A stretch of 64,000 nt of DNA, from positions 6,796 through 70,795 of the forward strand of contig QPMI01000050.1 in the NCBI GenBank assembly GCA_004431415.1, read 5' to 3'. The first letter of the stretch is position 1. Each line of letters starts with the position of its first letter. This DNA comes from Cyanophora paradoxa CCMP329 (lineage: Eukaryota; Plantae; Glaucophyta). Under the pieces are notes generated by a model. The model was not told the DNA's origin and did not search any database. It saw only the letters and a list, made by a program, of their open reading frames with translations. A program made the translations under genes and the position numbers. This document shows, piece by piece, positions 4,596-25,475 of this stretch.

Positions 4596-5605
4596 ATGCC
4601 TGTGGATTACATCGAGGTTAGCTCATTTAATACAATCTCTGGTGATGGTCCCACATCAAGCTTTGTGGCAAGACTCCCCAGTAGTTATGAGAATGTGAGG
4701 GCTGTGAGACTGGTATCAGCCGAATTTTATAACAGCATCCCTATGGTGAGTGGTGAAACCAAAGTTGGAGATGTGACAGTTGACAATGCATTTAGCATTT
4801 ATTATTCTGAACAAACTCCTGGAGCTGGAAGCTCAGGAATTCCAACAGTTCGCCCAGCTGCTGACTATGAACAATGGAAACAATTCATTATAAGTCGAAA
4901 CACCCCATCCAAAGCCACCAACAACTGGTGAATGTAATTAACTCTAAATTCGAAGGCAGAAATCCCCAACCATCCATTCGCTGCAAATGGGATGAATCAC
5001 TGAAACGAATTATATTCCACTCAGCAGTACCATTTTACTTGGCTTTCTCAGTAGCTGTGAACCCAAGCCAACAAACAATCCAAAAGCTGTTGAGTTCAGC
5101 TAGACTGCTGGGTCTTGATCCTGGAAGATATGGTAACTCCCCAATCCAATCACAGGTCTATGATGCTCTCACTGATGGAATCTTTACTGGTGGTCGAGTG
5201 AATGGCATTATATCTTCTTTTGAGCCTGAGAAGACCAGGGACAGTGTTTTGTTTGTGAGAGTAAAGGAGCTGGGTGATCTGGTGCAATGTGGGGATGGTC
5301 TTCTGACTGGTTACTTTCACAAAATAGTGGTCCCTGATAAAGACTATGGTGAGCATGTTGTTTACAATTCAACAGAGGCTCATCCACTTTATAAATACTA
5401 TAACAAAAAGGTTGGATTATCCACTTTCTCGGTTGATATTGTTAATGCTGTAAATGAACCAATTGATTTTGAGGGTCAACCTGTTCATCTGACCTTTGAA
5501 ATTCGCTATGGTGATGAGCCAGCAGGAGACCCAGTTTATGAATACTTTAAGATGAGAATGTCGCAGCTTCACCCTTCCTATCCAGTTATTACAAGCTTCG
5601 CATAA
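4596..5605 (+). CDS. Minor capsid (penton) protein 2 (one apparent frameshift ~4880)
   Basis: SSFVARLPSSYENVRAVRLVSAEFYNS N-term; VLFVRVKEL...YFHKIVV...LSTFSVDIVNAVNEPIDFEGQPVHLTFEI C-term penton signature. Confidence 0.8.
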
Positions 5606-5658: not shown

Positions 5659-7025
5659 ATGGATATCACTTCCACTCTTCAAAGACTTTCGCTGAAAGAA
5701 GCCCTAACAACCCCAGAAGAGGCGAAAGCCTTTTTCCTGGATAACTCCCTTATGCTTGGTCTCGAATCCAAATCTAAGCCAGTTCTAGTTGTTGTGAATC
5801 CCAGCAATACTTTTGAGAATAATGTTGGAAATCGCATTTCCTTCAAGCTACCTCGCTACAATTTCTGTGGAAAACTCGAACTTGCTTTCGACCTACCAGA
5901 AATCACTTTTGCTGGTGAAGATCTAGTTCGCAATGGATACACTCGCCCAGTTGGTGCTTTAGTTCAGCGACTTGAAATTACCTATGGATCTTACACCTAC
6001 CACATTCCTTCTGATTTCCTTGCTCATTTCCCCTGGTCTATTATTCGGAGGATCAACTAGCTAAAAAGAAACGCTCAATGGGCATGGTTCATGGAATCCC
6101 TGCTCATGGAACCAACCGACTTGGTGGCTCATTTTTCGTTGAAATCCCAGTGCCTTGGCTAAATCACTATCTTCCCCTTGGTGCTTTATCTGGTGAAATG
6201 GTTGTTACTGTTTGGTTTAAGGATGCTGGAAAGGGTTATGTTGAAACTTCCTATGGTGGTCGCTCTCTCCCTGTTGTTGGTGGGACAGCTGCTGATAAGA
6301 CAGAAGATGATGGTCTTGGTGATACTGCTAATGCTACACTTGCCCATGTTGGTCAAAACATCACCACTTTCAGTCTTGGTGCAACAACCCCTGCTATTTC
6401 AATTACTTCTCCTCGCCTTTACATGCATGCTATTAATGTTTCTGATGAGCTTTTCGCTACTGTAATTGAAAAAGTAAAGACTACTGGCATGGCTATTCCC
6501 TCCCTTGATATTGGATTTGTAGATGCCATTGCTTTCCCTGCCAAGGGCAATGCCCAGCCCAATCGAATTAACCTCTCTCAAATCTCAGGTCTTGTCTATG
6601 CTCTGCTTGTTTCAGTTCGTGATTATGAGACTGTTGACAAATCCAATGGCTCCCACAGTGTTCTTAAGACCTATGCCAACTCCAAAGAGATAACATTCAC
6701 AACTGAAATAAATGGACAGCGACTTTTTGCCACTGAGCCAATTTCTCTACTCAAAGGAGCTGAGCTAATTGCTGATGCCTTCAAATGCTCTAACATGGAT
6801 AAGGTTGCAGATAAATATGTCCTTTCAGGACTCCCATTCTGCCTTGATGGAGAAAAGGCAATTCGAAATATTGCTCAAAGTGGATTTGTAGACCTGACTA
6901 ATTCCTCATCTTCATTCCTCACACTCTACATGCCCACAGATAAGACAATCAATGTTCAAGTTCGCGCTTTAATGCATAGTTTCCTCATTATAGACGGTTC
7001 AGGTGTTCGTAGAATCAATTTATAG
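5659..7025 (+). CDS. Major capsid protein, double jelly-roll (one apparent frameshift ~6033)
   Basis: ~455 aa when joined (…HFPLVYYSEDQLAKKKRSMGM…); ISFKLPR…LAFDLP…GALVQRLEITYG…FVEIPVPW…YLPLGAL…VTVWF pattern; sits between the pentons and the packaging ATPase. Confidence 0.8.
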
Positions 7026-7084: not shown

Positions 7085-7867
7085 ATGCAAGATTTAGAAG
7101 AGTTTAATGTTTCTGAAATGATAAAAGGTGTTTTCAGAGCCATTTTTATAGGCAAAAGTTGTACGGGAAAAAGCGAATGTGTAAAGTATTGGTTAAAGCA
7201 ATTACATGATGCCAAAGTTATTGATGTTGTCCTAGTTGTGAGTGGGACCAGCTTTAATCATTTCTGGAGAGAGGTTGCAACAGTAGAACTTGGTAAATGG
7301 GATGCTGGTTACATTTCAAAGCTTTTGGATGAAAGGCAGGAGAAAATCGAAAAAGGTGAACCTGTGAACCACATGTGTGTTGTTTTAGATGATTTAATTG
7401 ATAATGAGATAGTCGATCTCACAAGGGATAAAATAATCGGATCCTTGTATTCCAGAGGTCGCCATTCGAAAATATCCATTATCTGCATTACACAGAAACT
7501 CAGAAAAGTCTCTTCCACTATTCGAGTTAATTCTGATTATGCTGTTTTCCTAAGTGCTGCTAATCGCAAAGAACTTGAAGCCATAGAGGAAGAATACAAT
7601 ATAATGCGAAATAAAGAGGATTTCTACAAGATGTTTGAAGAGTATGTTCACTCCTATCAGTATATCGTTTGGTCCTCTGCTGGCTACTCAGTTAAATACT
7701 TTGTTGATAAAGCGGACCTTGTGAAAGATTTCCCATTCCCTCGCTTCCACAGGAAGCCCAAAAAGAAAGAAGATGAGCTGAAACCCCCAGAGAAAGAGGA
7801 AGCCCCCAAAGAAGTGAAGAGCCAAGTCCATAGCAATAAATTGATGCGATATAAACGCGGTTTATAA
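7085..7867 (+). CDS. A32/FtsK-like genome packaging ATPase
   Basis: Walker A GKSCTGKS, Walker B VVLDD, RGRHSKISIICITQ motif, IRVNSDY. Confidence 0.93.
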   Translation: MQDLEEFNVSEMIKGVFRAIFIGKSCTGKSECVKYWLKQLHDAKVIDVVLVVSGTSFNHFWREVATVELGKWDAGYISKLLDERQEKIEKGEPVNHMCVVLDDLIDNEIVDLTRDKIIGSLYSRGRHSKISIICITQKLRKVSSTIRVNSDYAVFLSAANRKELEAIEEEYNIMRNKEDFYKMFEEYVHSYQYIVWSSAGYSVKYFVDKADLVKDFPFPRFHRKPKKKEDELKPPEKEEAPKEVKSQVHSNKLMRYKRGL

Positions 7868-9530: not shown

Positions 9531-9633
9531 GGTGTGACAGGTGTGACAGGTGTGACAGGTCTATCCCATCGATTTTGAAGATCAACTTTTCACCAGGGCT
9601 TTCCTTGGGATGGACCTGTCACACCTGTCACAC
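9531..9633. repeat. Iteron palindrome copy 1 (candidate replication origin/recombination site)
   Basis: (GGTGTGACA)x3-GGTCTATCCCA, 37-bp spacer, TGGGATGGACC-(TGTCACACC)(TGTCACAC); 28-bp arms with one mismatch; 60 bp downstream of the primase-helicase stop. Confidence 0.9.
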
Positions 9634-9692
9634 AAACCATTTTCAGTAAGGCTATAAAAATATATGTAAATCTCAATCATTAATCGTTTTCT

Positions 9693-12019
9693 TTAATATT
9701 CGGCATCATCTTCATTGTCTTCCTGAACCCTTGTTATCTTTCGAATCCCAATATATCCTCTGGCTAGAATTCCATTAACTCGTTTTCTTTCTGATTTTAC
9801 ATTGAAGATCTCCCTTACTCTTTTCATAACAGATACACATTCAACTTTATCATCAACACTTTTGTATGATTTGTAAATGATATCACTGGAAACAAAGTCG
9901 TTAGCATTATGTGTAACCTCGAAATTATCTCGAAGCCATTCACCAATCTTGTCATTTTCAGCTATAAAGTTAATTCCCTGTTCAATAATCGATTGAGGGG
10001 ACTTCTTAAGATCTCTTCAACCTCTTTGTTCTTCCACATATCCAGTAATATCTTCATGTGAGCCATCTTATACTCATCATCATTGTGAAGAAGTGTGAAC
10101 AGAGTTGGATCAGCTTTCTTCTGACCAGCTTCTGGCTTCTCTCTGAATATATTATTGAATCTCTGATAGGAAAGTCTTCTTTGAATTGCAAAGTCTGGTT
10201 TATTTATAGTCAAATTGTCATTAGTTGTAATGTAGACCTGAAACATTGGGGTAAGGATAACTGGGTCTTTGAACAAGGCTCTCACAGTCATTTCATTTCC
10301 ACCTGTGACCTCCTTAATCTTGGAGATCTGCAGTTTATCACCATCTTCAGCCTCATTACTGAATACAAGTCGCTTTCCAAGGAGTTTGGCAAGTTCAGGA
10401 GTAGCCTCTGATGAGTTCTTTTTAGGCTTAGTCCAATAGGATATTTCGAGAGGGCTGTAATAACGACCAGATATCTGTTTGCAGTATTCCTGAACAAGTG
10501 ATTTACCATTAGCACCAGCACCAGTCCACATATAGAACTTCTGGGATTTAGTTGATCCACTAAGGGCAATTGCAATGGATGCCAGAAGATACTTTCGCTC
10601 TGCTGGATCATCCACAATCTCTTTATAAATCTGATTGAGATGCTCTATTTTCTTGGGGTCTACATTTTCAGTATAGTCATAACCCACAGTCTTGCTCACC
10701 ATATCTTCCAGTTTACCCTTTCTGAAAGTCATAGTGGTCAGATCAAATACACCATTTTCGAATCCAATCACATATGGAACTGTGTCAATCTTCTCAAAGA
10801 ATTCATCATCATTCAGCAGTGGGACCAAGTCAGTCAGAAGGGATTTGCGAAATCCTGATTGTTTAAGATTTTTGGCAATGGTCATCAATGTTTTGGATCT
10901 TTCTTCGAAAGCTGCTTTGTTTTCCTCATCCTTTAAAGCTCTTTGACTATAATGCACAGCCCTTCCAAGGTATTGGGGGACAACAAGACGGCTTATATCT
11001 AGGTAAATCTTTAGGTTTGTGTCATCATGCTCCCAAATCCCAGTATCAGTATTGAGTTTGAACCATGACTTTTTGGAGTATCTCCATGTATGTTTAAGAA
11101 CCTCTTTGCATACTAAACTCACATCATAATGAGCGCCACCAGAACCAGCGGATTTATCTATAAGATTGAAGATATCAGATTGCATTCCAATGCAGATGAA
11201 TCGTTTTTTGCAATTTCCACTGTAGCTTGACACAATGTATTTGTTATCATCTCCTTTAGCTTTCATAACATACCAGTTATTCGATTCATGTGAACCATTG
11301 CAGCATGGGCAATTGAGTCCCTTGTTAGCAGCATCAAAGTTAAAGCCAAGTTCAGTTTTAGAGATTATATTGGGATGCATAAATCCCATATCCACCAGCT
11401 CTTTGATAATATTGTTTTCCAGTTCATCATGTGAGGTAGCATTAGCAGTATACTCACTCTTATAGATGTAGTTATCTATTATCCACTTTTTGAAGTCATC
11501 AGTAGGCTCATTGAAATCACAGGTATCATCCCATGGGGAGATTACCCAAGCCTTGTTCACACTGGGACACACATTGATCAGTCCAGAAGTTCCAGTTCCA
11601 GTGATTGTTTTCAGGTCAACCTTCTCAAAGCCTTTAAAGCCAGGAGCCTTATCGGTAATTTTGAGTTTATTGAACTCCTCAGGTCGTTTAAAGTAGACAT
11701 GATAGCCTTTTTTAGTTTTTGCCATGGGCTGATTGGCATCAAAGTCATCAGGAAACATATCCCGGAATTTCTCAAAGTCCTCCTCATCATCAAAGTCAAT
11801 AACCATCATGTTGTCTGAGAGCAGAATGCCCCAAGATACATACTGATTAGTTGCCAGCGCTTCCTCATACTTTTCCCAGGACCATGCACCTCCCTTATGC
11901 TTGAAAACAGGGTCTTTGCTGTCAGGTTTCACTGGGATAATCATGTTTTTGGACAGTTCCTCATCAGATCTGAGCCAGTTAGCGAGCGATTTGAGCGATT
12001 TAGTCTGTTTGGCGTTCAT
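9693..12019 (-). CDS. Bifunctional PrimPol primase - D5-like SF3 helicase with C-terminal winged-helix-like region (frameshift ~9997)
   Basis: MVIDFD / KTKKGYHVYF primase motifs, CPCC…H Zn site, IGFENGVFDL (D5_N), GAGANGKS Walker A, FSNE Walker B, ITTN; frame continues …ENDKIGEWL…GYIGIRK…EDDAEY* to 9693. Confidence 0.92.
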
Positions 12020-12036: not shown

Positions 12037-12075
12037 CCTTTTATATATATAGAAGATTTTTCTTTAAGTAGTTTT
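12037..12075 (-). promoter_or_regulatory. Conserved viral promoter motif, copy upstream of the primase-helicase
   Basis: 39-mer 38/39 identical to 13362-13400 (minus strand AAAACTACTTAAAGAAAWATCTTCTATATATATAAAAGG); degenerate copy at ~12503-12538. Confidence 0.7.
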
Positions 12076-12486: not shown

Positions 12487-12542
12487 TTTTCCTCTGTCTC
12501 TCTTAATATATATAGAGAATTCTTTAAATCATTTTTTGTTCT

Positions 12543-13358
12543 CTAACCTCTTTGTCCAAATCGCTCAATATACATAAGTTTGAAATGCTTACCTAGCAAT
12601 GCTACAAATGGTTCGATTTCCAAGGTCTCCCATGTTTTCTTGTCCTTATTCCATCTGCAATCTAATCCTTTTGCGATATCTTTTTTAAGATAAGGCACCT
12701 GAAACCCAGCAACCAATGTATTTGTTGTACTGAGTTCTGCATACATTTCAATCAATGCAGATCTGCCCTCTCTGAACCTCTCTATATCATCTCTGCGAAG
12801 ATTATCCATTTTCGGAATAAATTGGTTGCACCAAATCAGGAAAAGATTAACTGCATGTTTATTCCTTGCTCTTTCTTGTTCTAATTCTCTCTCTCTTCGC
12901 TCTCTTTCTTCTAATTCAAGCTGCCTCTTTCGAGCTTCCTCTTGTTTTTCAAGTTCTCTTTTTCTTTCCAGTTCTTCTTGCTTTAAAGCGATTCTGCACT
13001 TATTACAGAAATTATCCTTTCGGTTTTTATGCCGATCTCCACATCTTTCACATATATCTTGACCTCTGGCACCCTTCGGAATAAATCGTAAAATGCAGCA
13101 ATTCCCAACAATGACCACAATCTTTTTATTAACATGCAGAATATAGCATTGCTCTTTAATTGGATGATCACAGGCGCAATGCTCAGACTCTGGAGGCAGG
13201 TCATAGTCACTTAATCCATATTTTGCAAGCTTTGCCCAAAGAGGGAGCGGTTTCCTGTTACTTCCAAGAGCAACATAATCATTGAAGTTATCAGATCCAC
13301 AAAGCAACATTAAAGCCGCTTTGAGCTTTTCCAGGCAATACGATTTCTTCTCTGCCAT
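12543..13358 (-). CDS. Cys/His-rich (zinc-binding) protein with coiled coil and C-terminal DUF5710-like motif
   Basis: HCACDHPIKEQC…VGNCCILRF, CERC…CNKC, VPYLKKDIAKGLDCRWNKDKKTW. Confidence 0.7.
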   Translation of the reverse strand: MAEKKSYCLEKLKAALMLLCGSDNFNDYVALGSNRKPLPLWAKLAKYGLSDYDLPPESEHCACDHPIKEQCYILHVNKKIVVIVGNCCILRFIPKGARGQDICERCGDRHKNRKDNFCNKCRIALKQEELERKRELEKQEEARKRQLELEERERRERELEQERARNKHAVNLFLIWCNQFIPKMDNLRRDDIERFREGRSALIEMYAELSTTNTLVAGFQVPYLKKDIAKGLDCRWNKDKKTWETLEIEPFVALLGKHFKLMYIERFGQRG

Positions 13359-13361
13359 TGT

Positions 13362-13400
13362 CCTTTTATATATATAGAAGATATTTCTTTAAGTAGTTTT
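13362..13400 (-). promoter_or_regulatory. Conserved viral promoter motif, copy upstream of the 12543..13358 gene
   Basis: Near-identical to 12037-12075; 3 bp from the ATG. Confidence 0.7.
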
Positions 13401-13467: not shown

Positions 13468-16400
13468 ATGCCCCGAATTAGCAACAGACTCATTAGAGAG
13501 AAGAAATGGGAACTTATGGGATTACTGGGAACACTGTATGCAGCCCATGAAATCACAGAGGCTGAATATGACCGGGAAATCGGATTTATTTCAAGGGGCA
13601 GACCCACTTTAGCAAAATTAACCAGAAAAGCCAATAACCTCTATGACAAAGTTGAGACTCTTGATGAACTCGATCGCCTGAGGCAAATAGAACCAGAGGC
13701 AGAAGATGGAACAGCCATGAATGAATTATATCGCTGGCTCACATACAGAGCCAGAAGGGAAGTTGTGGTAGATGTGATTGAATATTTAGATAGAATTGCA
13801 ACCTCTCTACCAAAACGTTTAAGAGATAGTCTGGATCAATTCAGGGCAATCAAAGTTCGCTTGTCGTTTATCTGCAAGTTCGTAAAAGTCAGCAATCCAC
13901 AGGTTTGGATATCGAAATACATTTACAGCGATTATTTTGTATTAACCAAATCGAGAAATATTCGAACTGAGCTGAATAAAGCAGCCCAAATGTGTCAGGA
14001 ACAGATGAATGTTGTTGATAGCTATCGATTGGAGAGAATCGAAATGCTAAGAGTTGCTATTATGAGTTATGCCCAACTGGTGGCTGCTATGTTAAAACAC
14101 CAGAATCAATTGCAGCCAAGAGAGCCACAGTGAATATTCGAAATATTGATGATTCTTGCTTTGAAAATGCCATTTTGGCATGGATCCATAGGAAAGATGT
14201 AAATTCCCACAAGAGAAGTGAGCTTACACAATATCGCAAATGGAAATACTCACCAACCACATACAATCCTTTGGCTCTCAATTTCGACAATATCCCATTC
14301 CCTGTTCCTTGTGATGCTGAAATCATTGATAAATTCGAATCTCAAAATGCAGGCATCAGCATAAACATATTTGGAATGGATGGAGATGTTATATATCCCC
14401 TACATCAATCCAGCAACCCAGGCAGAAAGCAAAAGATTAATCTAATGCTCATTCATGATGATGAAGGGAATGGTCACTATATTACTATCATGTCCCTTTC
14501 AAGACTTCTCAGAGTTGCCCTTGATAAAACCAAGGATCAAAAGTTACACTACTGTGATACATGCTTATCTCGATTCAGGTCTGAGGCTAAACTCACTGCT
14601 CATGTGGACTCAAACAGATGCATTGATTGGAGACTCTCAAAGGGAATCACCCCTAAGCCTGACACCACAATAGAGTTTGGACTGAAAAACCTCAGGAAAA
14701 CTGTCTGGCTTCCTGTTGTGGTTTACTGCAAGATTGAACATAGAAGCATCCCCATTGATGCATCGAAATCCAAGAGGGAAGTCTCAGCAGTCAACATTAG
14801 AATAGTCACTGGGGCAGATGTTCAGGAGTTTCGATTTGAGGGTCAGGATCCAATGGGAGGTCTGTTTGAATGCTTGGAGTCCAAAGCAAGAGAGCTAATC
14901 GATTTCCTGTTCACCAATATTCCCATGAATGAACTCACAGATGAGCAAAAGGCTATTTACAGAGCTACCAAACACTGTTACCTTTGCAGTGAGAGGTTCA
15001 CCAAGGAAAACTTCAAATGCAGGGATCATGATCACCACACAGGTAATTACATTGCACCTGCATGCAGAAACTGCAATCTCCATAGGAGAATCTCAAAGCA
15101 AACCAAAGTTGCAGTTGTTGTTGACCAAATGGATGACTGTGGGACATTCATTTTCAGAAAAATAGCAGGCATGGGTGATAAAAAGCGAATCGAAATCCTT
15201 TCGAAAAACTTTGATCAATACCTTTCATTGCAATGGGGTCTTTACAAGTTCATTGATGCAAGTAATTTTATGGACTTTGGGGCTGCTGATGTAGATGAGT
15301 TAATGAGCAAATTCCAGGCTTTCAGAAGGCTTTCACACTCAGTATATGGATTGGACCCAGTTCATTATGTATCTGCACCTGGGTTATCTTGGGATGCTAT
15401 GCTTAGGACCACCAAGGCAAAAATAGAGCTTATAAGTGATGTAGAGCAATACGAATTTGTTGAGAGGGGAATCAGGGGTGGCTTTGCAACAATGCCTTGT
15501 AGGTATGCTGAGGCTGATGGTGAAAACTCCCATATAATGCTGTTTGATGCTAACAACTTGTATGGCTACTGTTTGAGTCAGCCAATTCCAGTTGGTGATT
15601 TTAGATGGGAGACCGAATTCAACCCACAAGATAACAGATCCAGTTTCCTAGAAGTTGATCTGGATTACCCAATTAGGCTGTTTCTAGATCACAGTGATTT
15701 CCCCCTAATTATTAACAAGAAAATAGTAGAATATGCAGAATTATCACAATATCAAAAGAGCCTATTAGATCTCTCAGGAGAAGAGCTTGATAAGACCCCT
15801 AAGCTAACTGCAACCTTTGGTTCTGTGACCAACTATGTGATTTCTGAGCCTCTTCTGCAATATCTGTTGGACAAAGGGGTGAAATTAAAGAAAGTTCACA
15901 GGGTCCTATCATTTACTGTGGCTCCTGTAATGAAACCCTATATTGAGCTGAATACTGACATGAGAAGGAAAGCAGTGAATAAATTCGAGGCTGATTTCTA
16001 TAAACTCATGAATAACTCAATCTATGGGAAATGCATTGAATCTTGCAGAGGTAGATCTGTGGTTAAGATTGCAAACAGTGAGAAACTGTTTATGAAATAT
16101 GCAGCCTCCCCATTGGTGAAATCAACAAGTCCCATAAACGAAAAAGCAGTTGCCTTTGAGTTTTACACAAAGCATGTGAAGCTAGATAAGCCAGTTGCTA
16201 TTGGGGCTTATGTTCTGGATGCAGCCAAACTGCATAACTACAAGTTCTTCTATGATACTGTAAGGTCCCAATGGACAAAAGCAAAGTTACTATTCCATGA
16301 TACTGACTCCTTTTGTCTATATATCGAATCTAAGACCCTACAAAAAGATATAGAGAATATATCCTATGCATTAGACCTTGGAGGTGATTCCAGAATGACC

Positions 16401-16711
16401 CAGGTAAATACAAAAATGAAATGCCTGGCTCTGCTATATTGGAGTATGTGGGTCTGAGAGCAAAAGTTTACAGTTTCAGAACTGCTGAGATTGAGAGGAG
16501 TAAGCTCTCTGGGACTTCCACTGAGGAACTCCAATTTAATGATTTTAAGCAGTGTTTATTTGCAGGTATCAGCAAGACTGTGACTGCAAAGCAGAAAAGA
16601 AGGGCAGATCACACAATAATAGACACTGTGAGTAGAAGGGTTGCCCTAAACTGCTTTGATGCAAAGAGATACATCTTACCAGATGGTATTAATTCTGTTC
16701 CTTTTAATTAA
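13468..16711 (+). CDS. polB: Protein-primed family B DNA polymerase 1 (two apparent frameshifts; exonuclease motifs degenerate)
   Basis: Joined frames give …GGCYVKTP…VNIRNIDDSCF…, EndoVII-like RDHDHHTGNYIAPACRNCN, GIRGG, FDANNLYG, KLMNNSIYGK, HDTDS, GLRAKVYS, DAKRY. Confidence 0.93.
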
Positions 16712-16714
16712 GAG

Positions 16715-18100
16715 ATGCCAGCAACTGGAAGAATAGTTAGGAGAACCACTGAGCAACTGCAAGGAAACCTACTGCCCATCACAGTTCCAAAGGAGGAAAA
16801 GGGGGAATCTCGAATTGTAAAAAAGTCTGAAATGAAAGAGCTTGTCCCAGTAGAGATTCCAGTTGCTATTGCAGTGAAAGAAACAAGCAAGATTGCCAAG
16901 AGATTCTATGATGTGAGAACTGGTTACAAAGGGCTTCAAGCTATGAGGGCTGAGTTACCAGATGAATCCTATAAGCAGTTGCAAGAGTTCTATAAAAAAC
17001 AAGAGGTAGTTCAGATCAATGCACCTGCTATATCTAGGAAGAGAGATCCCATGGTCCCAATTAGGCAACCCCTTGATACCTATGTGATTGATTTGCTCTT
17101 TTTCCCAGCTTATAAGAAACAAAACAATGGCTATGATACCTTTATGACTGCAATGGAATCTACACTGAGAACTGGGTATATCATACCTATAAGGGATAAA
17201 TCAGCTCTCACTACATTAGCTGCATTTAAACAGCTTGAAATGAGAGTAGCAAGACCCATAGTAAAAGTTCAATCAGATGCTGGGAGTGAATTCCAAAATC
17301 GAATATTCCAGGAGTATTTATCTAGTAAATTCATAGAACACCAAGTGAGTGGAACTGCTGACCATAGAAGCCAAGGTCGAATTGAAGCCTTTAACAAGCA
17401 GATTAAGAGACTGATCACAAACTATTGCATAGCTAATAACACAGCTAGATTCTTTGATGTGTTAGGTGATATTGAGTATAATTACAATAATACAGTTCAC
17501 TCAGCTACTAAGATGAAGCCAGGCGAAACTACAGAGGAGCATTATAGGTATATAGTGGGATTAGAAGATGAAAGATTCAAGAAATCAATAGCTTACCTTG
17601 ATACCATGCAGCCTGGCATGTTTGTTAGAGTGAAAGTTGAGAAGAACCCCTTTGCTAAACAGGGTAACAATTGGTCTAGGATGGTTTACACTGTTGATAG
17701 TAGGGAAGGCTTTAAGTTTAAGCTAAGGAGTCCCACTGGTGAGATCATAGAAAACAGGTTTGCTTTCCATGAGCTGTTGCCTGTGAATGCAGTTGAATAT
17801 CTAGAAACCCCTACAGTGGATGCCTTGGAGCAAGCTAAAGAGGAAGCCAGGGCTGATGCTGCTATAAGGAGAGAAGGCATAGAAGCTGCTAATGAAGTCC
17901 CAGATAAGCCTTTGATAGAGGCTAGAAAGGAGAAGGCTGGGAAAGTTAACAGGGAACTCAAAAAGCTCACTATAGCAGGGACACAGAAACTTTCTGAGGT
18001 TAATAGCCAGAGATGGTATAATGACTTTCAGACTACTAAGGAGTCATATACAGCCCCTAAACCTCAGAGAACACTAAGAGAAAGGACCAAAACTAGCTAG
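16715..18100 (+). CDS. int: Retroviral-like (rve) DDE integrase 1
   Basis: YVIDL, QSDAGSEF, QGRIEAFN catalytic triad; YNNTVHSATKMKP; C-terminal SH3-like GMFVRV…NWSRMVYTV. Confidence 0.93.
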   Translation: MPATGRIVRRTTEQLQGNLLPITVPKEEKGESRIVKKSEMKELVPVEIPVAIAVKETSKIAKRFYDVRTGYKGLQAMRAELPDESYKQLQEFYKKQEVVQINAPAISRKRDPMVPIRQPLDTYVIDLLFFPAYKKQNNGYDTFMTAMESTLRTGYIIPIRDKSALTTLAAFKQLEMRVARPIVKVQSDAGSEFQNRIFQEYLSSKFIEHQVSGTADHRSQGRIEAFNKQIKRLITNYCIANNTARFFDVLGDIEYNYNNTVHSATKMKPGETTEEHYRYIVGLEDERFKKSIAYLDTMQPGMFVRVKVEKNPFAKQGNNWSRMVYTVDSREGFKFKLRSPTGEIIENRFAFHELLPVNAVEYLETPTVDALEQAKEEARADAAIRREGIEAANEVPDKPLIEARKEKAGKVNRELKKLTIAGTQKLSEVNSQRWYNDFQTTKESYTAPKPQRTLRERTKTS

Positions 18101-18326
18101 TTTGCTAGGCAAAAACTCGTTTTTTCCAAATATATGTATGACTGATATACATATATGCACATGATATACACATAGTCTTGTAGATCTTCTCAAGCGCTTC
18201 ACAGCGATATGCAGAACGTTGCGTTTTGATGATCTGGTGATGAGATATAACAGTTTGAAGATGAAAAAGTCACTTGCCATAGTAGACTTGGTGAGACACT
18301 AGCTCAGGAATCGACTTGACTGAAAA

Positions 18327-18444
18327 GCGTTTTTGGCTCAGCGGTTAAGACGCTTGGATTTCCGAGTCGCAGTTCAAATCCGCTCGGGAACCTTTACTTC
18401 GTTCGCCGTGAAACTTGAAAAGTAAAAAAAAAACGCGGTTTTTT
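18327..18444 (+). ncRNA. Candidate Pol III (type 2 promoter) tRNA-like element
   Basis: A-box TGGCTCAGCGG (18334-18344), B-box GTTCAAATCC (18372-18381), each in a hairpin loop; T6 at 18439-18444; no anticodon arm. Confidence 0.45.
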
Positions 18445-19029
18445 CTAGATTAATGCTGTACCCGTCTGGAAAATCAATATTCACGTTTGCTGCGATATCT
18501 CAACACCAACTTATCAAATCGATGCGCTTTAAACGTCATAAAATCGAGCATTTCAAGGCGGTCTGAGCGCTTATCAGCCATATCGACATTTCGATAACCC
18601 TGACTCGAAATCGCGATGAAACCGATTTTGAATTTTGATTTTAAATTCGATTAAAATGCATTAAACGTGAGTTTTTAATATAGATCACCAGGAAGTTATC
18701 AAATCGATGCACTGGCGGTAAAATATAATCACATATATAATACATAACAATAACTTGCAATCACATATACGAATCTCGATGTGTATACATCGCTATTATG
18801 ATTAAAGCGAGTTTTGAAATTCAAAATAATTAGATTAAATTCGATTATAACTCAAAAATCGCGATTTTTAACCATATACTTATCGTTTCGATCAAATTAT
18901 GATATCGAATAATCAACTATATTATAATGCTTCGATAAACGTGATCACATATATGAAAACATCAATCTAACATTGCATGTAGTAAGCATCTCCCCTTGAT
19001 TCCCCCTATTATATTATATTTATATTTAA

Positions 19030-19185
19030 GTGGACTCAAGGTTGACTCATATTAATCGTAAAAGTAGTAATAGTATATGGATTTTGTTACGAATTCAATG
19101 CAAGGGTTGACTAAGTGGGTTGAGTTGACTCAAATTTCACAGGAAATAACAATGAATCAGAGTATAAATGCATTTTTGAATCAAC
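19030..19185. repeat. GTTGACTCA-like short repeat cluster
   Basis: GTGGACTCA 19030, GTTGACTCA 19041, GTTGACTAA 19106, GTTGACTCA 19124, inverted TGAATCAAC 19177. Confidence 0.55.
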
Positions 19186-19242
19186 TACACCAACTAACAC
19201 TGAGATTTTAACAATGAATGAGGTCCTTACTGAATATGGTAT

Positions 19243-19345
19243 GTGTGACAGGTGTGACAGGTCTATCCCGTGGATTTTCAAAATCAATTTCTCACTAGGA
19301 CTTTCCTTGGGATGGACCTGTCACACCTGTCACACCTGTCACACC
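19243..19345. repeat. Iteron palindrome copy 2
   Basis: GTGTGACA-GGTGTGACA-GGTCTATCCC…GGGATGGACC-(TGTCACACC)x3; core 48/56 identical to copy 1. Confidence 0.9.
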
Positions 19346-19596
19346 CAATTATTTCAAAAATCCTAAGGGTCCCCCCTTAGAATCATTAAAACATGATAAA
19401 AACATATAAGTTTCATGTATAATTACGATTGGATTCAATAAGAGATCGATTTGTTTTATTTAACAAATGAATCATTTTTTACAAAATATGAAAATATCGA
19501 AAAGAATACAAAATAATCGAAATAAATGAATATTCGATAAGATATACACAGATTATCGATTGATTGAAATAGAATATACGAGATATATCAACAAAA

Positions 19597-20076
19597 TCAA
19601 TTAAGATTAAGCCGAGGGTTAAAACTCCGCATTTTACTATGTGTCTCTTCACCAAATGCATTGTGTGCTGTTTCAATGTACGCCTTCAAAATCGCAGGCA
19701 AGCGTGAGAGGAAATGTGGTGATCCGCGTGCTTCTGTGTCAGCTCGGATAAGTGCTCGCAATGTCCTAGCGAACCTGTCAATAATTCCAAGTTTGTTACC
19801 TTTAGAAATGTGGTCATCTTTGGTAACATCAGTGTGCATTTTCAACGAGTTCTCTTCGGCCATTGCCCGAATTGCTGCTGTGTTAAAACCGTTGTCGGCG
19901 GAGAAACCCCAGATCCCTGGTAGCTCCGCGATCATTTTTGGAAGTTGTTTGAATGTTTCTATTTTTCGCACGATAGCGAAACGGGTTGCAATCTCGACCG
20001 CTGCAAACAGACGATACCTACCAATAAATAATACATCAATTTGCCAGACACCCGGTGGAGCTGTTATCGTGTACAT
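19597..20076 (-). CDS. int: Minimal rve integrase catalytic core (integrase 2)
   Basis: WQIDVLF, SADNGF, KLGIIDRFARTL, LPAILKAY…H; ~159 aa from ATG 20076; no N- or C-terminal domains. Confidence 0.75.
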   Translation of the reverse strand: MYTITAPPGVWQIDVLFIGRYRLFAAVEIATRFAIVRKIETFKQLPKMIAELPGIWGFSADNGFNTAAIRAMAEENSLKMHTDVTKDDHISKGNKLGIIDRFARTLRALIRADTEARGSPHFLSRLPAILKAYIETAHNAFGEETHSKMRSFNPRLNLN

Positions 20077-20174
20077 TCTTCTAATTGTCACACACATAAA
20101 AAGTTTTTGGTGGATATCGCGTGAATATGCCTTAAAAAGATTGTGATTATGATTAATAATAAAGTGATATTGTA

Positions 20175-20465
20175 ATGGAGGCGGAAAACTGTTTGGCACG
20201 CAAGCGTGGTCGTCCTCCAAAGTCTATGTCTCCGGAAGTAATAGAAGAGATGAAGAAGAATCGATCAGCAGCGGTAAAAGCTCGTTATCATTCAGATGAG
20301 GAATTTCGTAAGCGCAAACTACAAGCGACGTATGAATATCAGGAAAGAAATATTGAACGTAAAAGGGAACAATGTCGTAATTATAGACGTCGGCAAAGAC
20401 AATTGCTTCTAACTTTATTGGAAAAGTTTGGTGCTCAATCGGTTGAGGTAGTTTCAGCAGCCTAA
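20175..20465 (+). CDS. Small basic AT-hook protein
   Basis: KRGRPPK AT-hook, RYHSDEEFRKRK. Confidence 0.7.
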   Translation: MEAENCLARKRGRPPKSMSPEVIEEMKKNRSAAVKARYHSDEEFRKRKLQATYEYQERNIERKREQCRNYRRRQRQLLLTLLEKFGAQSVEVVSAA

Positions 20466-20495
20466 TGTTTGGAGGTTCGCTGCAAACTTCTTTTT

Positions 20496-23400
20496 TCAAA
20501 TACGAGTGCGACAATGTCCAAGCGCCATTGTTTCTACGCCATTATCGCAAAGCCAGCGTTTTGTATCTAGCGAATGTAGTGCCTGTTTTGAGGTTTCTTG
20601 CACATAAACACGATGTTTCTTTGAGCGCATACCTCGAATTCCATTCACTTCACATGATAAGTATAGTTTCTGTCCATCTACAACTTTACCAAGAACACAA
20701 TCAATATATCTTTCCCGTGTAAGCTGGTCGGCAAAGCTTTTAGAAATCCCTTGCATCGACGCTCTTGCTTACCACTGTCGATCTGATACCAATAACTCTT
20801 AGGTCTGTTCGCGATGAATTCTACCATTTGCTTACCATTGCACTCATCTTTGAAATTGCCAAGGGCTGTCGATTCTTTCTTCATGGTGGCAATTTCTTCG
20901 TCCGACATTCCTGCAAAGAATCGATGTGACTCCGGATATTTGCTAACATCTAAAAGGTGACTTATATTTTTCAGATCAGCGTACAAATCATCTGTCTCAA
21001 TTCTAAGGATTAGCGAGTCAGTATCCGTTGCAAGCAATTTAACACGCGGACCCCAGAGCGGTTTTAGTTGCTCGTAATACATTTTAAACATGTGTAGTTT
21101 TGACATTTCCAAAACACTGAATCCACTGTATATCGGTTTGTTTAATTTGACTTGTGAACGCCGTTTAGAGATAAATACAAGATCCTCATCATATTTGACA
21201 ATTTGCTTCAATAAATTTGGTTGTGCGGCAATTTTTGACAGTCTGACACTATCAGTCACAAGCTCCGCATCGCAATGCTTTCTCACGTTTTCCATATTTT
21301 TGCCGTATAATGCATTAGTCTTGAGTTTGAATAGATCTCGCACATGATCAAAGGTTGCGGCCTGACGCATTTCGGCATTTTTTCCACATACGGTTTCATC
21401 CAAGCAGTCTGCTTGTACGTAATAACACGATGAATTTTACTCACCACAAAACCTTGACTTCTGTAAAATTTGAGTAGTCTCCCATCAACAACATATTTCT
21501 TCAATGGAAGCAGACTTGGAATAAGCTTTCGCGTCTTCATCTGAATGCAATCCTTTTTAATCATATCCTGTTGTGATCTAGATAGCATCGTTGGATCTAC
21601 AATCATTGATACTGGCGCAATCGGGTAATCATTAAATTTCTCGTGAAGCTCATCTGGAATGTAAGCATCAATTTCAAGCGTTGCTCCTATATCACCGTCA
21701 TAATCGAAACCATCATGGTCAAAGGTTTCTGGATCAACCCATTTAAAATCTCCAATCGGATGTTTCTCTAACATCGCATATCCATACAACGAATTTGCAT
21801 CTATATAGTACAGATATACTGATGGTTTGGATGGATCATAATCAACCATGTCCTTATTGTTCGCTTTTGCATATCGATTTGACACCATTGAAATACCACC
21901 ACGAATACCTGTCTCGAAGAATCTGAACATATCCTCTTGACCCTCATGCAACAGCTGTAATTGCCCACCTGTATATTTTAGAGCAGCATCCCAACTAAAG
22001 CCTGGTAGTGACATGTAATATGCAGGATCTATGCCATCTGTAGCGCGAGATGTTTCCCGATACGCTTGAAACACATCTGATAGTAACGTTATATCAAGTT
22101 TCATATAAGCAATCGTGTAATCTAACATTGTCTTACATTTCAGCTTTTTCCAAACCTTCTGTGCGTGCTCATAATCTTCAAGCTTGCACTTTTCGTTTTT
22201 CAAGTCATTGTGAAACGCCTCTATCGGAGGTAGCTTACGGTCTGCAAGCCGCTGCCAGGAATTTACGTAGCTGTAGGGATAGATGCCCTTTCTTGTCATC
22301 AAATTAAACGTTTCCGCATCGGGACATAACTCGCGAGTTTGCTTTTTCAGTTCATCTGGAAGCGATGCCGCTAGCTTTTCGAGCGTTGCTGATAGATGTT
22401 GCATGCTGTCGCGGAATACGTAAATGCCGTACTCAATTTGACTCATTTTCTCGGAGTTTTGGAACATCACTTCGAAACGATTTGAAAGCGGTGTCTCAGA
22501 TCTCTCGAATTTGATTTTTTCTTTAACAAGCTGGTTCTTGATAAATCCTGGAACTCGTTTCTCATACTCCTCAGCATTTATGCTCAGTTTGTTCATCGTC
22601 CATTCCCTCACGCTTTGATTTTGATATGTCTTCTCAAGTCGTGTTCGGACTGATCCAAGTTTTCAATCAACTTTTTCTTAAATTCAATATGTGCGGCATG
22701 TCTACGAACACTTCCCTTTGCAATTGCGCGGATCAGCAAATGCGAATCAAATCCTCGAGCATTGTGAGCAATCAAGAAAACACGTTTTGATTTGAATCTT
22801 CTACGGTTGCAGCCAGGACAAGCAGCACCTTTGAAATCACCATTATCGTGATCGTGGTCCCAAACCTTTTTGATCTTCTCGCTGAATTCAACGTTACAGA
22901 TATAGCAACTAGTAGCTGAATCAAACGTTTGCTTTGCAACATCTGTTTTTATCGCTGGTACCGATGCATTTAGCCCTTTCTTTAAAGTTGGTTCCATTGA
23001 ATCTAGCCATTCAACAAACCTCTCCTCACATCTACGTCCGCTATTTACGTGCCAATATTTTGTATCATCATTGCCTGTGATCAAACATCCAACAGCAGCT
23101 GGTATTTGACATGCAATTTCCTCTGTCTTTCCATTTTTCACAGAGTTCGTAGACATTGCAAGTGTTTCAAAATCATAGGCTCCAACATATCGTGCCGTTA
23201 TCGTATTCGCATGGTTCAGGAATTTCAATGTTGAACGGTCGGGTTTTGGAAGCACATCACGGCCATGTTCGTCTCGTTCGAGGCATCTGTCTTCTTCGAT
23301 GTGTTTCTGAAGAGCATCATCACCGCGAAATCCTTTTTGACAAGCGAGACAATAGCTGCGTGCGTTCTTGTCAATTCCAGGACGAGAAAACATTCGACTC

Positions 23401-24536
23401 ACGTTCTTGATCCAAACGAAGTGGCCATAACTACCTTCGCCAGTCACGAATAGCAGAGGAATAGCATCTCGAGCCGCTGAAATATAATATGGAGTGATAT
23501 CTAGCTTTTCATTATCAGCCACATACACGCATAGCTTCAGATTGTTTGCCTCTTCAAACCGACGGAATATCTTTGAATCAAGCGGGACAGGATAACTGAG
23601 CATTGATGTGTTGATCGTACTTAGGTGCTCTCTGTACTTGGCAGCACGTTGAGCATGCCGATCGACTGGGAACTTTGCGGATAAAACTGAATACGTAAAA
23701 CACATATTATCTGGTGCCTCCACGTTTATGACTGCGTTCTTCTTGCTAATCCATGATGGAAGTTCAAATGATGCGCCACCAACGGCGCGGACATGTTCTA
23801 GACTTTGTATGTAAAAATACGTCCACGTTTCTAACTCCCAGCTGTCATTCTCCTGTTCAGCTCTTCCATCGATCTCAACACATCTGTCACGCAGCTCAAC
23901 TTCAATGTTTGCACCGGGGAGGATACGGTAGAATTGATCTTCACTGATTTCATCTGTTTTGAAGCGGTTAGTAAAACCTTCTGTGCCATTCTGCCTATGC
24001 TTAAAAATACCTTTTGCATATACCTTTATAGATAGCCCCATTCGTGTTTCATTCGCCGCAGTCAATCGCTCAGTTATGAAACGCTCAAATTTTGCTTTGA
24101 AATCTGGGGTGTTCGCCATGTACGACGCGAGCGATGTAACTCTTAGACCGTTCGGCCTGATGATCGCAGCGCTTTCGAGTGCGTATATTCCATCTAGTGC
24201 CGTCTCGCGTGAACCATCTCCAGCAAGTTCCTCATTTGGCTGTCCAGGGAGTTCATTGAAAAGTGCTACCAGTTCAGCTTGGTTCTCAGCGATGATTATC
24301 TGCACAGTTCGCTCTGAGGCACGTCTCGTTTGTCCGACTACAGCAGCGAGCATTGAAAGCACATCAACAGTTCGTTGCAGCGTCACAAGTCGAGTTCGAG
24401 ATCCTGGTGATGAGATTCGGAGTAATTTGTTTCGATATAGTCCATGAATACGTCTACGCTCATACAAAGTTTGTGCTAGACCTACGATCTGTTGTTTTAA
24501 TAACGCTATCTGACGACGACGAGCAAATTGATTCAT
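20496..24536 (-). CDS. polB: Protein-primed family B DNA polymerase 2 (three apparent frameshifts)
   Basis: YDFET (ExoI), AHNARGFDSH (ExoII), RKGIYPY, YMKLD (ExoIII), WDHDH…AACPGCN insert, GIRGG, IDANSLYG, KLKTNALYGK, TDTDS, RPKSY, DTKRW. Confidence 0.93.
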
Positions 24537-24763
24537 TTTGAAAGTGTCGCTAGAAATAAATTTCGGTTGATCAGCGCGATCTCTTATATCATTTTATATT
24601 GTTGCTGAAACCTCTAAGACATAGTTATAACCTGAACCTAAACTTGGACTACGTCATCGGTGGGAATAATTAGCGTCTAGCTAGAACCTGAACTCGAGTA
24701 TGTAATTAGATTCCGATGATATAGTAATTACGTGTAGCATAACCCTTGAAACCTCTTTGTTTT

Positions 24764-25475
24764 TTAGATTCGAAATACACACAATTAACGTCTAAATGAT
24801 GTTGAAGATGATTCTGAGACCGGCGCTTTGGGGGTCCGCCTCAAATCATTGCTATATCTTTTGCAAGATCGATCGGTCTAGACGTTGGATATTACCTAGC
24901 GGTTGCTGTTTGGAAGGAGAGGTAGACCAGAGGGAGAGGAAGGTGGTAGACGTAAGGAGAGAGTGGACGGAAGTGGTGGTTGGGAAGGCGTTGGAGTGGG
25001 TGGGTTGGGGTGGGTTTGGAGGAGTGAGGGTGAGAAAGAGGGGGGTGGGCTGGCACCCCCACTATCTCATTTCGAAATACACACAATTAACGTCTAGAAT
25101 TGAGCTAAACGTGTTTCCTCTGTTAGCTTCATTGTACTCATTAATATCGTCTAGAATTGAGCTAAACATGTTTTCTCTGTTAGATTCAAAGTACACAAAA
25201 TTAACGTCTAGCTGTATCTGAAGATTATTCTGAGACCGGCGCTTTGGGGGTCCGCCTAAAATCACTGCTATATCTTTTGCAAATCGATCGGACTAGACGT
25301 TAGATACTACCTAGCGGTTGCTGGATGGTTGGTTTGGAGAGGTTGTGGTGGTAGACGTAACGAAGGGATGGAAGAGAATGTGTGTTGGAAGGCGTTGGAG
25401 TGTGTGGGTTGGGGTGGTTTGGAGGAGTGAGGGTGAGAAAGAGGTGGGTGGGCTGGAACCCCCACTATCTCATTT
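24764..25475. repeat. Putative terminal repeat region: ~300-bp imperfect tandem duplication with internal ~57-bp repeats
   Basis: Unit A ~24764-25072 and unit B ~25180-25475 share TTCTGAGACCGGCGCTTTGGGGGTCCGCCT…CCCCCACTATCTCATTT; two ~57-bp …CGTCTAGAATTGAGCTAAAC… copies between them; G-rich tracts. Confidence 0.8.

What the first reader, a model, noticed from the sequence alone, without database searches (positions are those of the whole stretch)
18190..18444. tRNA-promoter mimic (A-box/B-box in hairpin loops) at the CpG boundary: viral Pol III RNA or TFIIIC insulator
Seen: GCGTTTT-[TGGCTCAGCGGTT]-AAGACGC stem-loop starting at the tRNA +1 register, then TTTCCGAG…[GTTCAAATC]…CTCGGGAA, a TTTACTT/AAGTAAA stem and a T6 run; no cloverleaf. 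The CpG-depleted zone ends ~150 bp upstream. Established: adenoviruses (pPolB relatives) make Pol III VA RNAs, and TFIIIC-bound boxes can act as chromatin barriers. Inference: a VA-like ncRNA or an anti-silencing barrier. Caveat: a T5 at 18330-18334 could abort transcription.
Basis: partly seen in the sequence, partly recalled or inferred. Interest (0 to 1): 0.7.

Follow-up and report, generated by a model that had tools for sequence, protein, structure and literature searches.

The report
Worn-down tRNA gene in endogenous virus
A Polinton-like virus present in many copies in a likely algal genome carries the remains of what was likely a glutamine tRNA gene: the RNA polymerase III promoter signals are intact but this copy has no anticodon loop, so it is likely a decaying passenger rather than a purpose-built viral RNA or silencing barrier.

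Summary
The A and B boxes are real and beyond chance (only strict pair in the window; 0 in 300 shuffles). The hairpins exist but are not exceptional (z about 0). Contigs from four runs show the unit is internal to a multi-copy Polinton-like virus. The commoner allele is 7 nt longer, with a perfect D-stem, four paired T-stem positions and a CTG-bearing loop. This copy lacks the anticodon loop. The commoner allele is not canonical either. Some copies lose the B-box end or the whole unit. This copy's T5 probably aborts Pol III, since the host tRNA-Gly is followed by T4. The CpG-rich zone (18195-18940) is a repeated-motif array, so it gives no evidence for a barrier. PLV-borne tRNAs are published (PMC12220804). 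Best reading: decaying tRNA pseudogene (0.5); promoter or tRNA mimic kept by selection 0.25; barrier 0.12; VA-like 0.05. This scan noted similar Pol III units in Polinton ends of other genomes (unchecked notes). Expression and methylation were not testable.

The parts
18329..18392 (+). Degenerate tRNA head (acceptor-like stem 18329-18335/18385-18391, broken D arm, anticodon stem without anticodon, T arm with two mismatches)
   Evidence: Rfam alignment; folds; sister alleles
18334..18344 (+). A box, perfect match to strict consensus; holds one CpG
   Evidence: invariance in sister alleles not visible (one search hides changes near contig ends)
18372..18380 (+). B box in the T-loop
   Evidence: no difference listed in the commoner allele; cut at 18378 in one X2 contig
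18353..18367 (+). Anticodon arm and variable region, 7 nt shorter than in the commoner allele; anticodon absent
   Evidence: tables 3, 4, 8
18330..18334 (+). T5 run inside the 5' acceptor strand, likely premature Pol III stop in this copy
   Evidence: host tRNA-Gly is followed by T4 (one gene)
18393..18426 (+). 3' trailer with weak 7-bp hairpin; 18385-18437 identical in the deepest contigs
   Evidence: (z +0.73), 26 table 8
18424..18444 (.). A10 / CG core / T6 palindrome; candidate terminator, one of several such motifs in the element
18280..18328 (+). Conserved upstream flank (to 18318) and 10-nt leader that differs among four alleles
   Evidence: tables 7, 8
18195..18940 (.). CpG-rich island: degenerate ~190-bp repeats downstream of the unit and an inverted copy of their motif upstream (18222-18253)
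   Evidence: copy-number joints
16715..18100 (+). rve integrase ORF directly upstream, followed by an A5/T6 palindrome at 18111-18125
14376..16711 (+). Protein-primed PolB, reading frame split near 16421-16457
9962..12019 (-). Prim-Pol / D5 primase-helicase
7085..7867 (+). A32-type packaging ATPase
5659..7025 (+). Likely major capsid protein, in two ORFs
   Evidence: nearest clusters viral, some with Capsid_NCLDV in 13-18% of members; lead only
19243..19345 (.). Mirror-image 9-mer block, repeated at 9531-9651 after the helicase gene; suggests the end region of the element
   Evidence: reading as an end marker comes from unchecked notes

Best explanation
The unit is a degenerate tRNA gene, likely derived from tRNA-Gln(CUG), that a multi-copy Polinton-like virus carries downstream of its integrase gene and that is likely decaying without a dedicated role. 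The A and B boxes are the tRNA gene's own internal promoter (shown by position and sister alleles). Inferred history: an intact tRNA gene was captured in the non-coding end region. It offered little codon benefit, since the virus prefers CAA and the host CAG. It lost decoding parts separately in different lineages of copies, which went on multiplying. Inferred state of this copy: TFIIIC could still bind if the DNA were unmethylated, but Pol III would likely stop at the T5, and the locus is likely methylated like most repeats of the presumed host.
For: four runs: the commoner allele (summed depth 598 of 704 in X1, 1051 of 1456 in X2, 511 of 743 in X3, 548 of 548 in X12) has a net 7 more letters. 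Read by hand from the tables, it pairs the D-stem 4 of 4 (this copy: one Watson-Crick pair, one wobble, two mismatches), repairs the A.C mismatch beside the B box (18371 A>G) and has a loop with CTG followed by A. A-box to B-box spacing goes from 38 to 45 (host tRNA-Gly 43). The two alleles complement each other: this copy keeps a 5-bp anticodon stem (18354-18358/18361-18365) with only 2 loop letters, the other keeps the loop. The commoner allele is also non-canonical (no 2-nt connector after the acceptor strand; 8-nt loop or shifted stem). Promoter loss occurs in other copies: one X2 contig (depth 184) skips 18379-18718 through the B-box end; one X12 contig (depth 164) has foreign sequence from the place of 18329. 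Gln codons: CAA 100, CAG 69 in 17 viral ORFs; CAA 1, CAG 29 in three host frames. PLV-borne tRNAs are known: 558 Rfam tRNA hits in 8300 PLV/virophage genomes, 37 tRNA-Gln rows, and one tRNA-Pro among 156 glaucophyte elements (PMC12220804, passages and supplement rows). Most repeats in C. paradoxa are CpG-methylated (PMC12344493, passages).
Against: Both boxes are perfect in this copy although the arms between them are much changed, and the B box shows no change in the commoner allele (chance about 0.15 for 9 events, so not significant). Both alleles keep an anticodon-like stem, one pair by a double change in one alignment. The head folds into acceptor plus anticodon stems by itself. The unit lies in a CpG-rich island of an otherwise CpG-depleted element. 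The isotype rests on a hand reading and recalled tRNA-Gln features; the Rfam tRNA family gives no hit and no donor tRNA was available. Three of the eight substitutions in the commoner allele are hidden. About half of the flank depth is not covered by any aligned allele.
Confidence: 0.5

Rival explanations
1. Selected, non-decoding Pol III gene. The virus keeps the promoter and an acceptor plus T-arm shape while the anticodon is free to go. Host Pol III would make a ~115-nt RNA ending at the T6; RNase P and tRNase Z would cut out a tRNA-like RNA and a short trailer. It would work like the gammaherpesvirus TMER heads or mascRNA, as a tRNA mimic or decoy.
For: Perfect boxes; B box unchanged between the two main alleles and 18385-18437 identical in the deepest contigs; best Rfam match is the mascRNA shape, 18.5 bits, E 0.12; head folds with acceptor and anticodon-like stems; TMER tRNA-like heads act without their miRNAs (PMC8223928, passages).
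Against: T5 inside this copy and T4 after the host tRNA-Gly; D- and T-stems broken here; with the trailer the non-tRNA fold wins by 5.3 kcal/mol; trailer hairpin weak (z +0.73); stem-preserving changes are transitions, which keep pairing easily; copies that lack the B-box end or the unit exist; mascRNA score far below the 42.5 cut-off.
Confidence: 0.25
2. TFIIIC landing pad or barrier. The DNA boxes, not an RNA, are what is kept; bound TFIIIC would keep the element's end region open and unmethylated so that it can be reactivated or copied.
For: Unit lies inside a 745-bp CpG-rich island (o/e 2.0-2.4) of an element with coding o/e 0.27; boxes intact while the T5 would spoil the RNA; tRNA genes have insulator activity (PMC11346459, passages); similar readings in unchecked notes on Polintons of other genomes.
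Against: The island is made of repeated TCGA/CGAT words (12 each in 506 bp) and starts near an inverted copy of the repeat motif. The neighbouring cassette keeps CpG over about 5 kb (coding o/e 1.14) with no A/B pair. This copy has CpA where the commoner allele has CpG one base before the B box (single event; 18363-18364 differs the other way). TFIIIC is reported to be excluded by CpG methylation. Some copies lack the B-box end.
Confidence: 0.12
3. VA-RNA-like hairpin RNA folded, with the boxes in hairpin loops, acting against host antiviral or RNAi machinery.
Against: Fold no better than shuffles; stem 2's 5' arm is interrupted by four inserted letters and two substitutions in the commoner allele, and stem 1 loses its closing pair and competes with a perfect D-stem; no VA family hit at E up to 10.
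Confidence: 0.05
4. An old tRNA-derived SINE (head, 30-nt body, A10 tail) inserted once into the virus ancestor and inherited by its copies.
For: tRNA head followed by a short body and an A10 run.
Against: Every listed contig that holds the head has the viral upstream flank; none has a host-like 5' flank (32 of 43 pieces shown). No exact target-site duplication. The A run is half of an A/CG/T palindrome type found also at 18111, 18323, 18854 and 19621.
Confidence: 0.05

Closest known systems
tRNA genes carried by PLVs and virophages (PMC12220804; passages and supplement rows read)
   Same: tRNA-derived sequence inside a PLV; Gln isotype occurs in that survey (37 rows); one glaucophyte element carries a tRNA-Pro
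   Different: Those are intact enough for Rfam or ARAGORN; this copy is below both, and the commoner allele is non-canonical too, so the proposed codon-compensation role cannot apply
Murine gammaherpesvirus 68 TMERs (PMC8223928; passages read)
   Same: Viral type 2 Pol III promoter in a tRNA-like 5' head followed by a 3' hairpin and a T run
   Different: Trailer here is ~50 nt with a weak 7-bp stem, no pre-miRNA-like hairpin; no triplicated A box; expression unknown
mascRNA/menRNA (Rfam RF01684) and Arabidopsis GUT15 tRNA-like RNA (PMC6152437; abstract read)
   Same: 7-bp acceptor joined directly to the D arm, anticodon-like stem with a tiny U-rich loop, T-loop kept
   Different: Score 18.5 against cut-off 42.5; those are cut from Pol II transcripts; here the boxes are intact and the short loop is allele-specific
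Adenovirus VA RNA
   Same: Type 2 promoter in a pPolB-bearing virus; T-run end
   Different: No Rfam match, no exceptional fold, stems not kept among copies, tRNA ancestry visible
tDNA / TFIIIC chromatin barriers (PMC11346459; passages read)
   Same: Intact A and B boxes next to a change in CpG content
   Different: No occupancy or methylation data; CpG island explained by a repeat array; B box lost in some copies

Membership tests
Functional cytosolic tRNA gene | A and B boxes at tRNA spacing | tested here: met
   spacing 38 here, 45 in the commoner allele, 43 in host tRNA-Gly
Functional cytosolic tRNA gene | Cloverleaf with 7-nt anticodon loop, detected by ARAGORN or Rfam | tested here: not met
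   No call at ARAGORN thresholds 100-75%; no Rfam tRNA row at E up to 10; anticodon absent
Functional cytosolic tRNA gene (commoner allele) | Canonical cloverleaf | tested here: inconclusive
   Hand reading: D-stem and four T-stem pairs perfect, loop and acceptor register off; 3 of 8 substitutions hidden; no program could be run on it
tRNA pseudogene / tRNA-derived sequence | Recognisable tRNA arms and boxes with disabling changes | tested here: met
tRNA pseudogene / tRNA-derived sequence | Identified donor tRNA gene | not testable with these tools
   No host genome held; phage search gave no tRNA hit
Adenovirus VA RNA | Match to the Rfam VA model | tested here: not met
   Not among 13 and 3 matches at E up to 10
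Adenovirus VA RNA | Stable, conserved multi-stem fold; central GGGU/ACCC pair (recalled feature) | tested here: not met
   z about 0; stems differ among alleles; neither tetranucleotide in 18327-18444
TMER (tRNA-miRNA-encoding RNA) | tRNA-like head with type 2 promoter | tested here: met
TMER (tRNA-miRNA-encoding RNA) | Pre-miRNA hairpin downstream | tested here: not met
   Trailer -5.9 kcal/mol, z +0.73
mascRNA/menRNA | Rfam gathering score 42.5 | tested here: not met
   18.5 bits
TFIIIC barrier | TFIIIC occupancy and block of silencing spread | not testable with these tools
   Needs ChIP and 5mC maps
tRNA-derived SINE | Dispersed copies with unrelated flanks and target-site duplications | tested here: not met
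   tables 7, 8 (32 of 43 pieces shown, identity floor 80%)
Polinton-like virus (carrier) | Capsid module plus replicase and integrase | tested here: met
   A32 ATPase, pPolB, D5 helicase by Pfam; rve below its curated cut-off (E 0.0003); capsid by atlas lead only
Polinton-like virus (carrier) | Terminal inverted repeats and target-site duplication | not testable with these tools
   Left end not seen in the window; no genome held

The most novel reading that the evidence does not exclude
Polintons and PLVs across distant eukaryotes repeatedly capture a host tRNA gene into their end region and wear it down to a minimal, non-decoding Pol III module (boxes plus acceptor/T-arm shape). They use it to hold an unmethylated, TFIIIC-bound foothold beside the replication origin and/or to make a tRNA-mimic RNA. 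tRNA finders miss such units, so they would be a general, overlooked part of these viruses.
Probability: 0.2. Interest if true: 0.7.

Novelty: new member of a known kind. Interest (0 to 1): 0.3.

Why it matters
As a decaying tRNA it is a modest addition: PLVs carry more tRNA-derived sequence than tRNA finders report. The published survey called one tRNA in 156 glaucophyte elements, while this unit sits in many copies. If the promoter proves selected, it would give endogenous PLVs a way to resist CpG silencing or a first non-coding RNA gene. The family is well suited to that test because alleles with and without the B box coexist in one genome, and a methylome of the presumed host is published.

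Tried and rejected
No whole genome held, so copies could be seen only as contig differences. No RNA holder listed for the stretch; two guessed-RNA runs, X15 and X17, had no contig on 17600-18453; neither blank is evidence on expression. No DNA relatives: 18-nt A-box word 0 hits in viral contigs; rve and ATPase 0 relatives; one distant rve locus (35% identity) in metagenomes, with about 400 bp downstream of the match, no tRNA and no A/B pair; 10 viral hits to a 17-nt word did not extend beyond 20 nt and were dropped as chance; 0 in prokaryote genomes; phage blastn gave 4 weak non-tRNA hits. ARAGORN at 70% threshold calls a 'tRNA-Lys' in another register, but makes 333 calls in the window, so it was rejected. 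Two fixed-structure energies (-9.4, -4.5) and the stem-3 probabilities there used a mis-indexed stem 3 and were dropped; one search replaces the energies. The acceptor-pair probabilities printed for the host tRNA were also mis-indexed and not used. The X12 foreign junction was considered as a Ty3-type insertion marking an active Pol III gene; such elements insert about 15 bp upstream of the mature tRNA (PMC6101501, passages), this one begins at the head's first base, is a single junction and has no match in the window, so it is not used as support. A PDB search with a host ORF gave nothing; the host name was not verified here. Literature: searches returned no paper on a degenerate tRNA-type Pol III unit in a Polinton or PLV ('polinton' 0 times in the 15 of 17 listed); the genome paper PMC6704402 has no passage with 'polinton', 'maverick' or 'viral'; PMC13578239 (passages) had nothing on this unit. 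The library lacks most subscription papers and bioRxiv supplements are closed.

Full report
Setting. The window has an AT-rich part (1 to about 25,500, 36-46% GC) and a GC-rich host part. The AT-rich part encodes a patatin-end/F5-8 protein, an A32 ATPase, a Prim-Pol/D5 helicase, a protein-primed PolB and an rve integrase, then a second, opposite PolB plus rve cassette at 19597-24536 (rve scores are below Pfam's cut-off). The ORF at 6078-7025 resembles viral capsid clusters (a lead). This is a Polinton-like virus. A flagellar PapD-like domain and a tRNA-Gly lie in the host part. Unchecked notes on the same genome name the host as Cyanophora paradoxa; I did not verify this. It fits the F5/8 domains reported for glaucophyte PLVs (PMC12220804, passage). 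The finding lies about 230 bp after the rve stop, before a mirror-image block at 19243-19345 that also follows the helicase gene at 9531-9651.

Observation. The A+B pair is the only strict one in the window, with 0 in 300 shuffles of the AT-rich part; a loose pattern finds only this unit and the host tRNA-Gly. The hairpins are ordinary: z = -0.04 with 90 of 200 shuffles folding as well, and similar values for six sub-pieces, the best being -1.87 for stem 2 alone, 17 of 300. But the 64-nt head alone folds with a 7-bp acceptor-like stem and an anticodon-like stem, and the best Rfam match, sub-threshold mascRNA (18.5 bits, cut-off 42.5, E 0.12), aligns it as acceptor, short anticodon arm and T-loop. 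Neither Rfam's tRNA family nor ARAGORN at usable thresholds detects it.

Sister copies. The stretch is held by 20 listed runs of one organism. I laid six of them. 410 and 383 contigs of X1 and X2 fit 17600-19400, the picture of a multi-copy family. On 18280-18450 (X1, X2, X3, X12; relation between runs unknown; 32 of 43 pieces shown) there are at least four alleles. (a) The window type appears as a separate contig in X1, X2 and X3 with 2-3 differences and no gap in the table, so the short arm is not an assembly error; it is not seen in X12. (b) A commoner allele, the same in all four runs, has 8 substitutions and 9 gap letters, net +7, at summed depth 598 of 704, 1051 of 1456, 511 of 743 and 548 of 548. 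[quoted passage not shown] (d) An X12 contig has a fourth leader and foreign GC-rich sequence from the place of 18329. The listed contigs that hold the head share the upstream flank, and 18385-18437 is identical in the deepest contigs. Depth is no copy number; against a 3390-nt junction contig (33-108) allele (b) is about 10-18 times deeper and allele (a) 2-3 times. About half of the flank depth in X1, X2 and X12 is not covered by any aligned allele.

What allele (b) shows (hand reading of tables 3 and 4; not run through any program). The 3' strand of the D arm becomes fully complementary to 18336-18339. The A at 18371 is G, giving four perfect T-stem pairs. Seven more letters lie in the anticodon and variable region; the loop holds CTG followed by A. 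Box spacing becomes 45, against 43 in the host tRNA-Gly. The window copy keeps a 5-bp anticodon stem with two loop letters, allele (b) keeps the loop but has the stem out of register, and together they point to one canonical arm with a CTG anticodon. The 3' end and T-loop also look like tRNA-Gln (recalled, not tested). Allele (b) is still not canonical: no 2-nt connector after the acceptor strand, and an 8-nt loop or shifted stem. No change is listed in the B box. The tool hides substitutions within about 30 letters of contig ends, so 3 of 8 are unseen and A-box invariance is not shown.

Transcription. The host tRNA-Gly is followed directly by T4 (one gene). If T4 stops this host's Pol III, the T5 at 18330-18334 would abort a transcript from this copy. 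The T6 is half of an A-run/CG-core/T-run palindrome that also occurs after the rve stop and at 18323, 18854 and 19621 (14 matches to a loose pattern in 1-26,000), so it is not specific to the unit. No usable RNA data were found.

CpG. The left element is CpG-depleted (coding o/e 0.27; 0.20 across codon boundaries), the right cassette is not (1.14; 1.04). Change points lie at 18195, 18940 and 19426. The island consists of degenerate ~190-bp repeats rich in TCGA and CGAT, with an inverted copy of their motif at 18222-18253 and copy-number joints among contigs. Values above 2 need selected CG words, not just protection from deamination (inference). In C. paradoxa methylation is at CpG (32%) and most repeats are methylated (PMC12344493, passages); TFIIIC is reported to be excluded by CpG methylation, and tRNA genes can act as insulators (PMC11346459, passages). 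A barrier is therefore possible but unsupported.

Mechanism. Shown: tRNA-type boxes, tRNA arms in sister alleles, residence inside the viral family, loss of the anticodon here, loss of the B-box end or of the unit in some copies. Inferred: capture of a tRNA-Gln(CUG) gene, little benefit for decoding (viral CAA 100, CAG 69; three host frames CAA 1, CAG 29), separate decay in lineages that kept multiplying. I put 0.5 on decay without a dedicated role, 0.25 on a selected non-decoding Pol III gene working like a TMER head or mascRNA, 0.12 on a TFIIIC landing pad, 0.05 each on VA-like and SINE. The evidence for selection is thin: B-box invariance has a chance of about 0.15, and the stem-preserving changes are transitions in two alleles only.

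Known and new. tRNA genes in PLVs are published: 558 Rfam hits in 8300 genomes, 37 tRNA-Gln rows, and one tRNA-Pro among 156 glaucophyte elements (PMC12220804; passages and supplement rows). If these copies were inside the surveyed elements, both tools missed them, which agrees with degeneracy of allele (b). TMERs are the closest functional model (PMC8223928, passages); GUT15 shows a tRNA-like RNA cut from a Pol II transcript (PMC6152437, abstract). Five searches found no paper on such a unit in Polintons or PLVs. The scan's own notes list eight comparable findings in at least three other genomes; these are unchecked and not independent support, but they are why the bolder reading keeps 0.2. 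Verdict: a real tRNA-derived sequence, new member of a known kind, interest 0.3.

Noticed in passing
window 9531-9651 and 19243-19345: Two 91%-identical mirror-image blocks of a 9-mer, one right after the D5 helicase gene and one in the end region; summed depth at 19003-19246 is several times that of the tRNA-like region.
   Followed up: partly
window 18445-18950: CpG-enriched (o/e 2.4) degenerate ~190-bp repeat array; contigs show a 323-nt tandem joint (18779 back to 18457), also in two guessed-RNA runs, and a 340-nt skip.
   Followed up: partly
window 19597-24536, 24756-25475: Second pPolB plus truncated rve cassette, convergent with the first, with no CpG depletion (o/e 1.14 against 0.27) and no capsid gene seen; ends in ~410-bp direct repeats before host DNA. 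Two elements with different methylation histories side by side.
   Followed up: no
window 18318-18329 (run X12 contig): Foreign GC-rich sequence beginning with TG starts exactly at the place of the head's first base; could be an LTR end; single junction.
   Followed up: partly
window 18430-18484 (3390-nt contig in X1, X2, X12): One copy has about 3.3 kb of GC-rich sequence after the A run, rejoining at 18484: likely a nested insertion.
   Followed up: no
window 18111-18125, 18323-18334, 18424-18444, 18854-18869, 19621-19635: A-run / CG core / T-run palindromes, one 11 nt after the rve stop; possible gene-end hairpins like those recalled for virophages.
   Followed up: partly
window 12037-12075 and 13362-13400: 39-nt 97%-identical AT-rich motif just upstream of two minus-strand genes (9962-12019 and 12543-13358), with a partial third at 12503-12524; candidate viral promoter.
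   Followed up: no
window 5659-7025, 14376-16711, 20496-24536, 4596-5605: Capsid, both PolB genes and one further ORF are split into pieces; decay or long-read error not distinguished.
   Followed up: no
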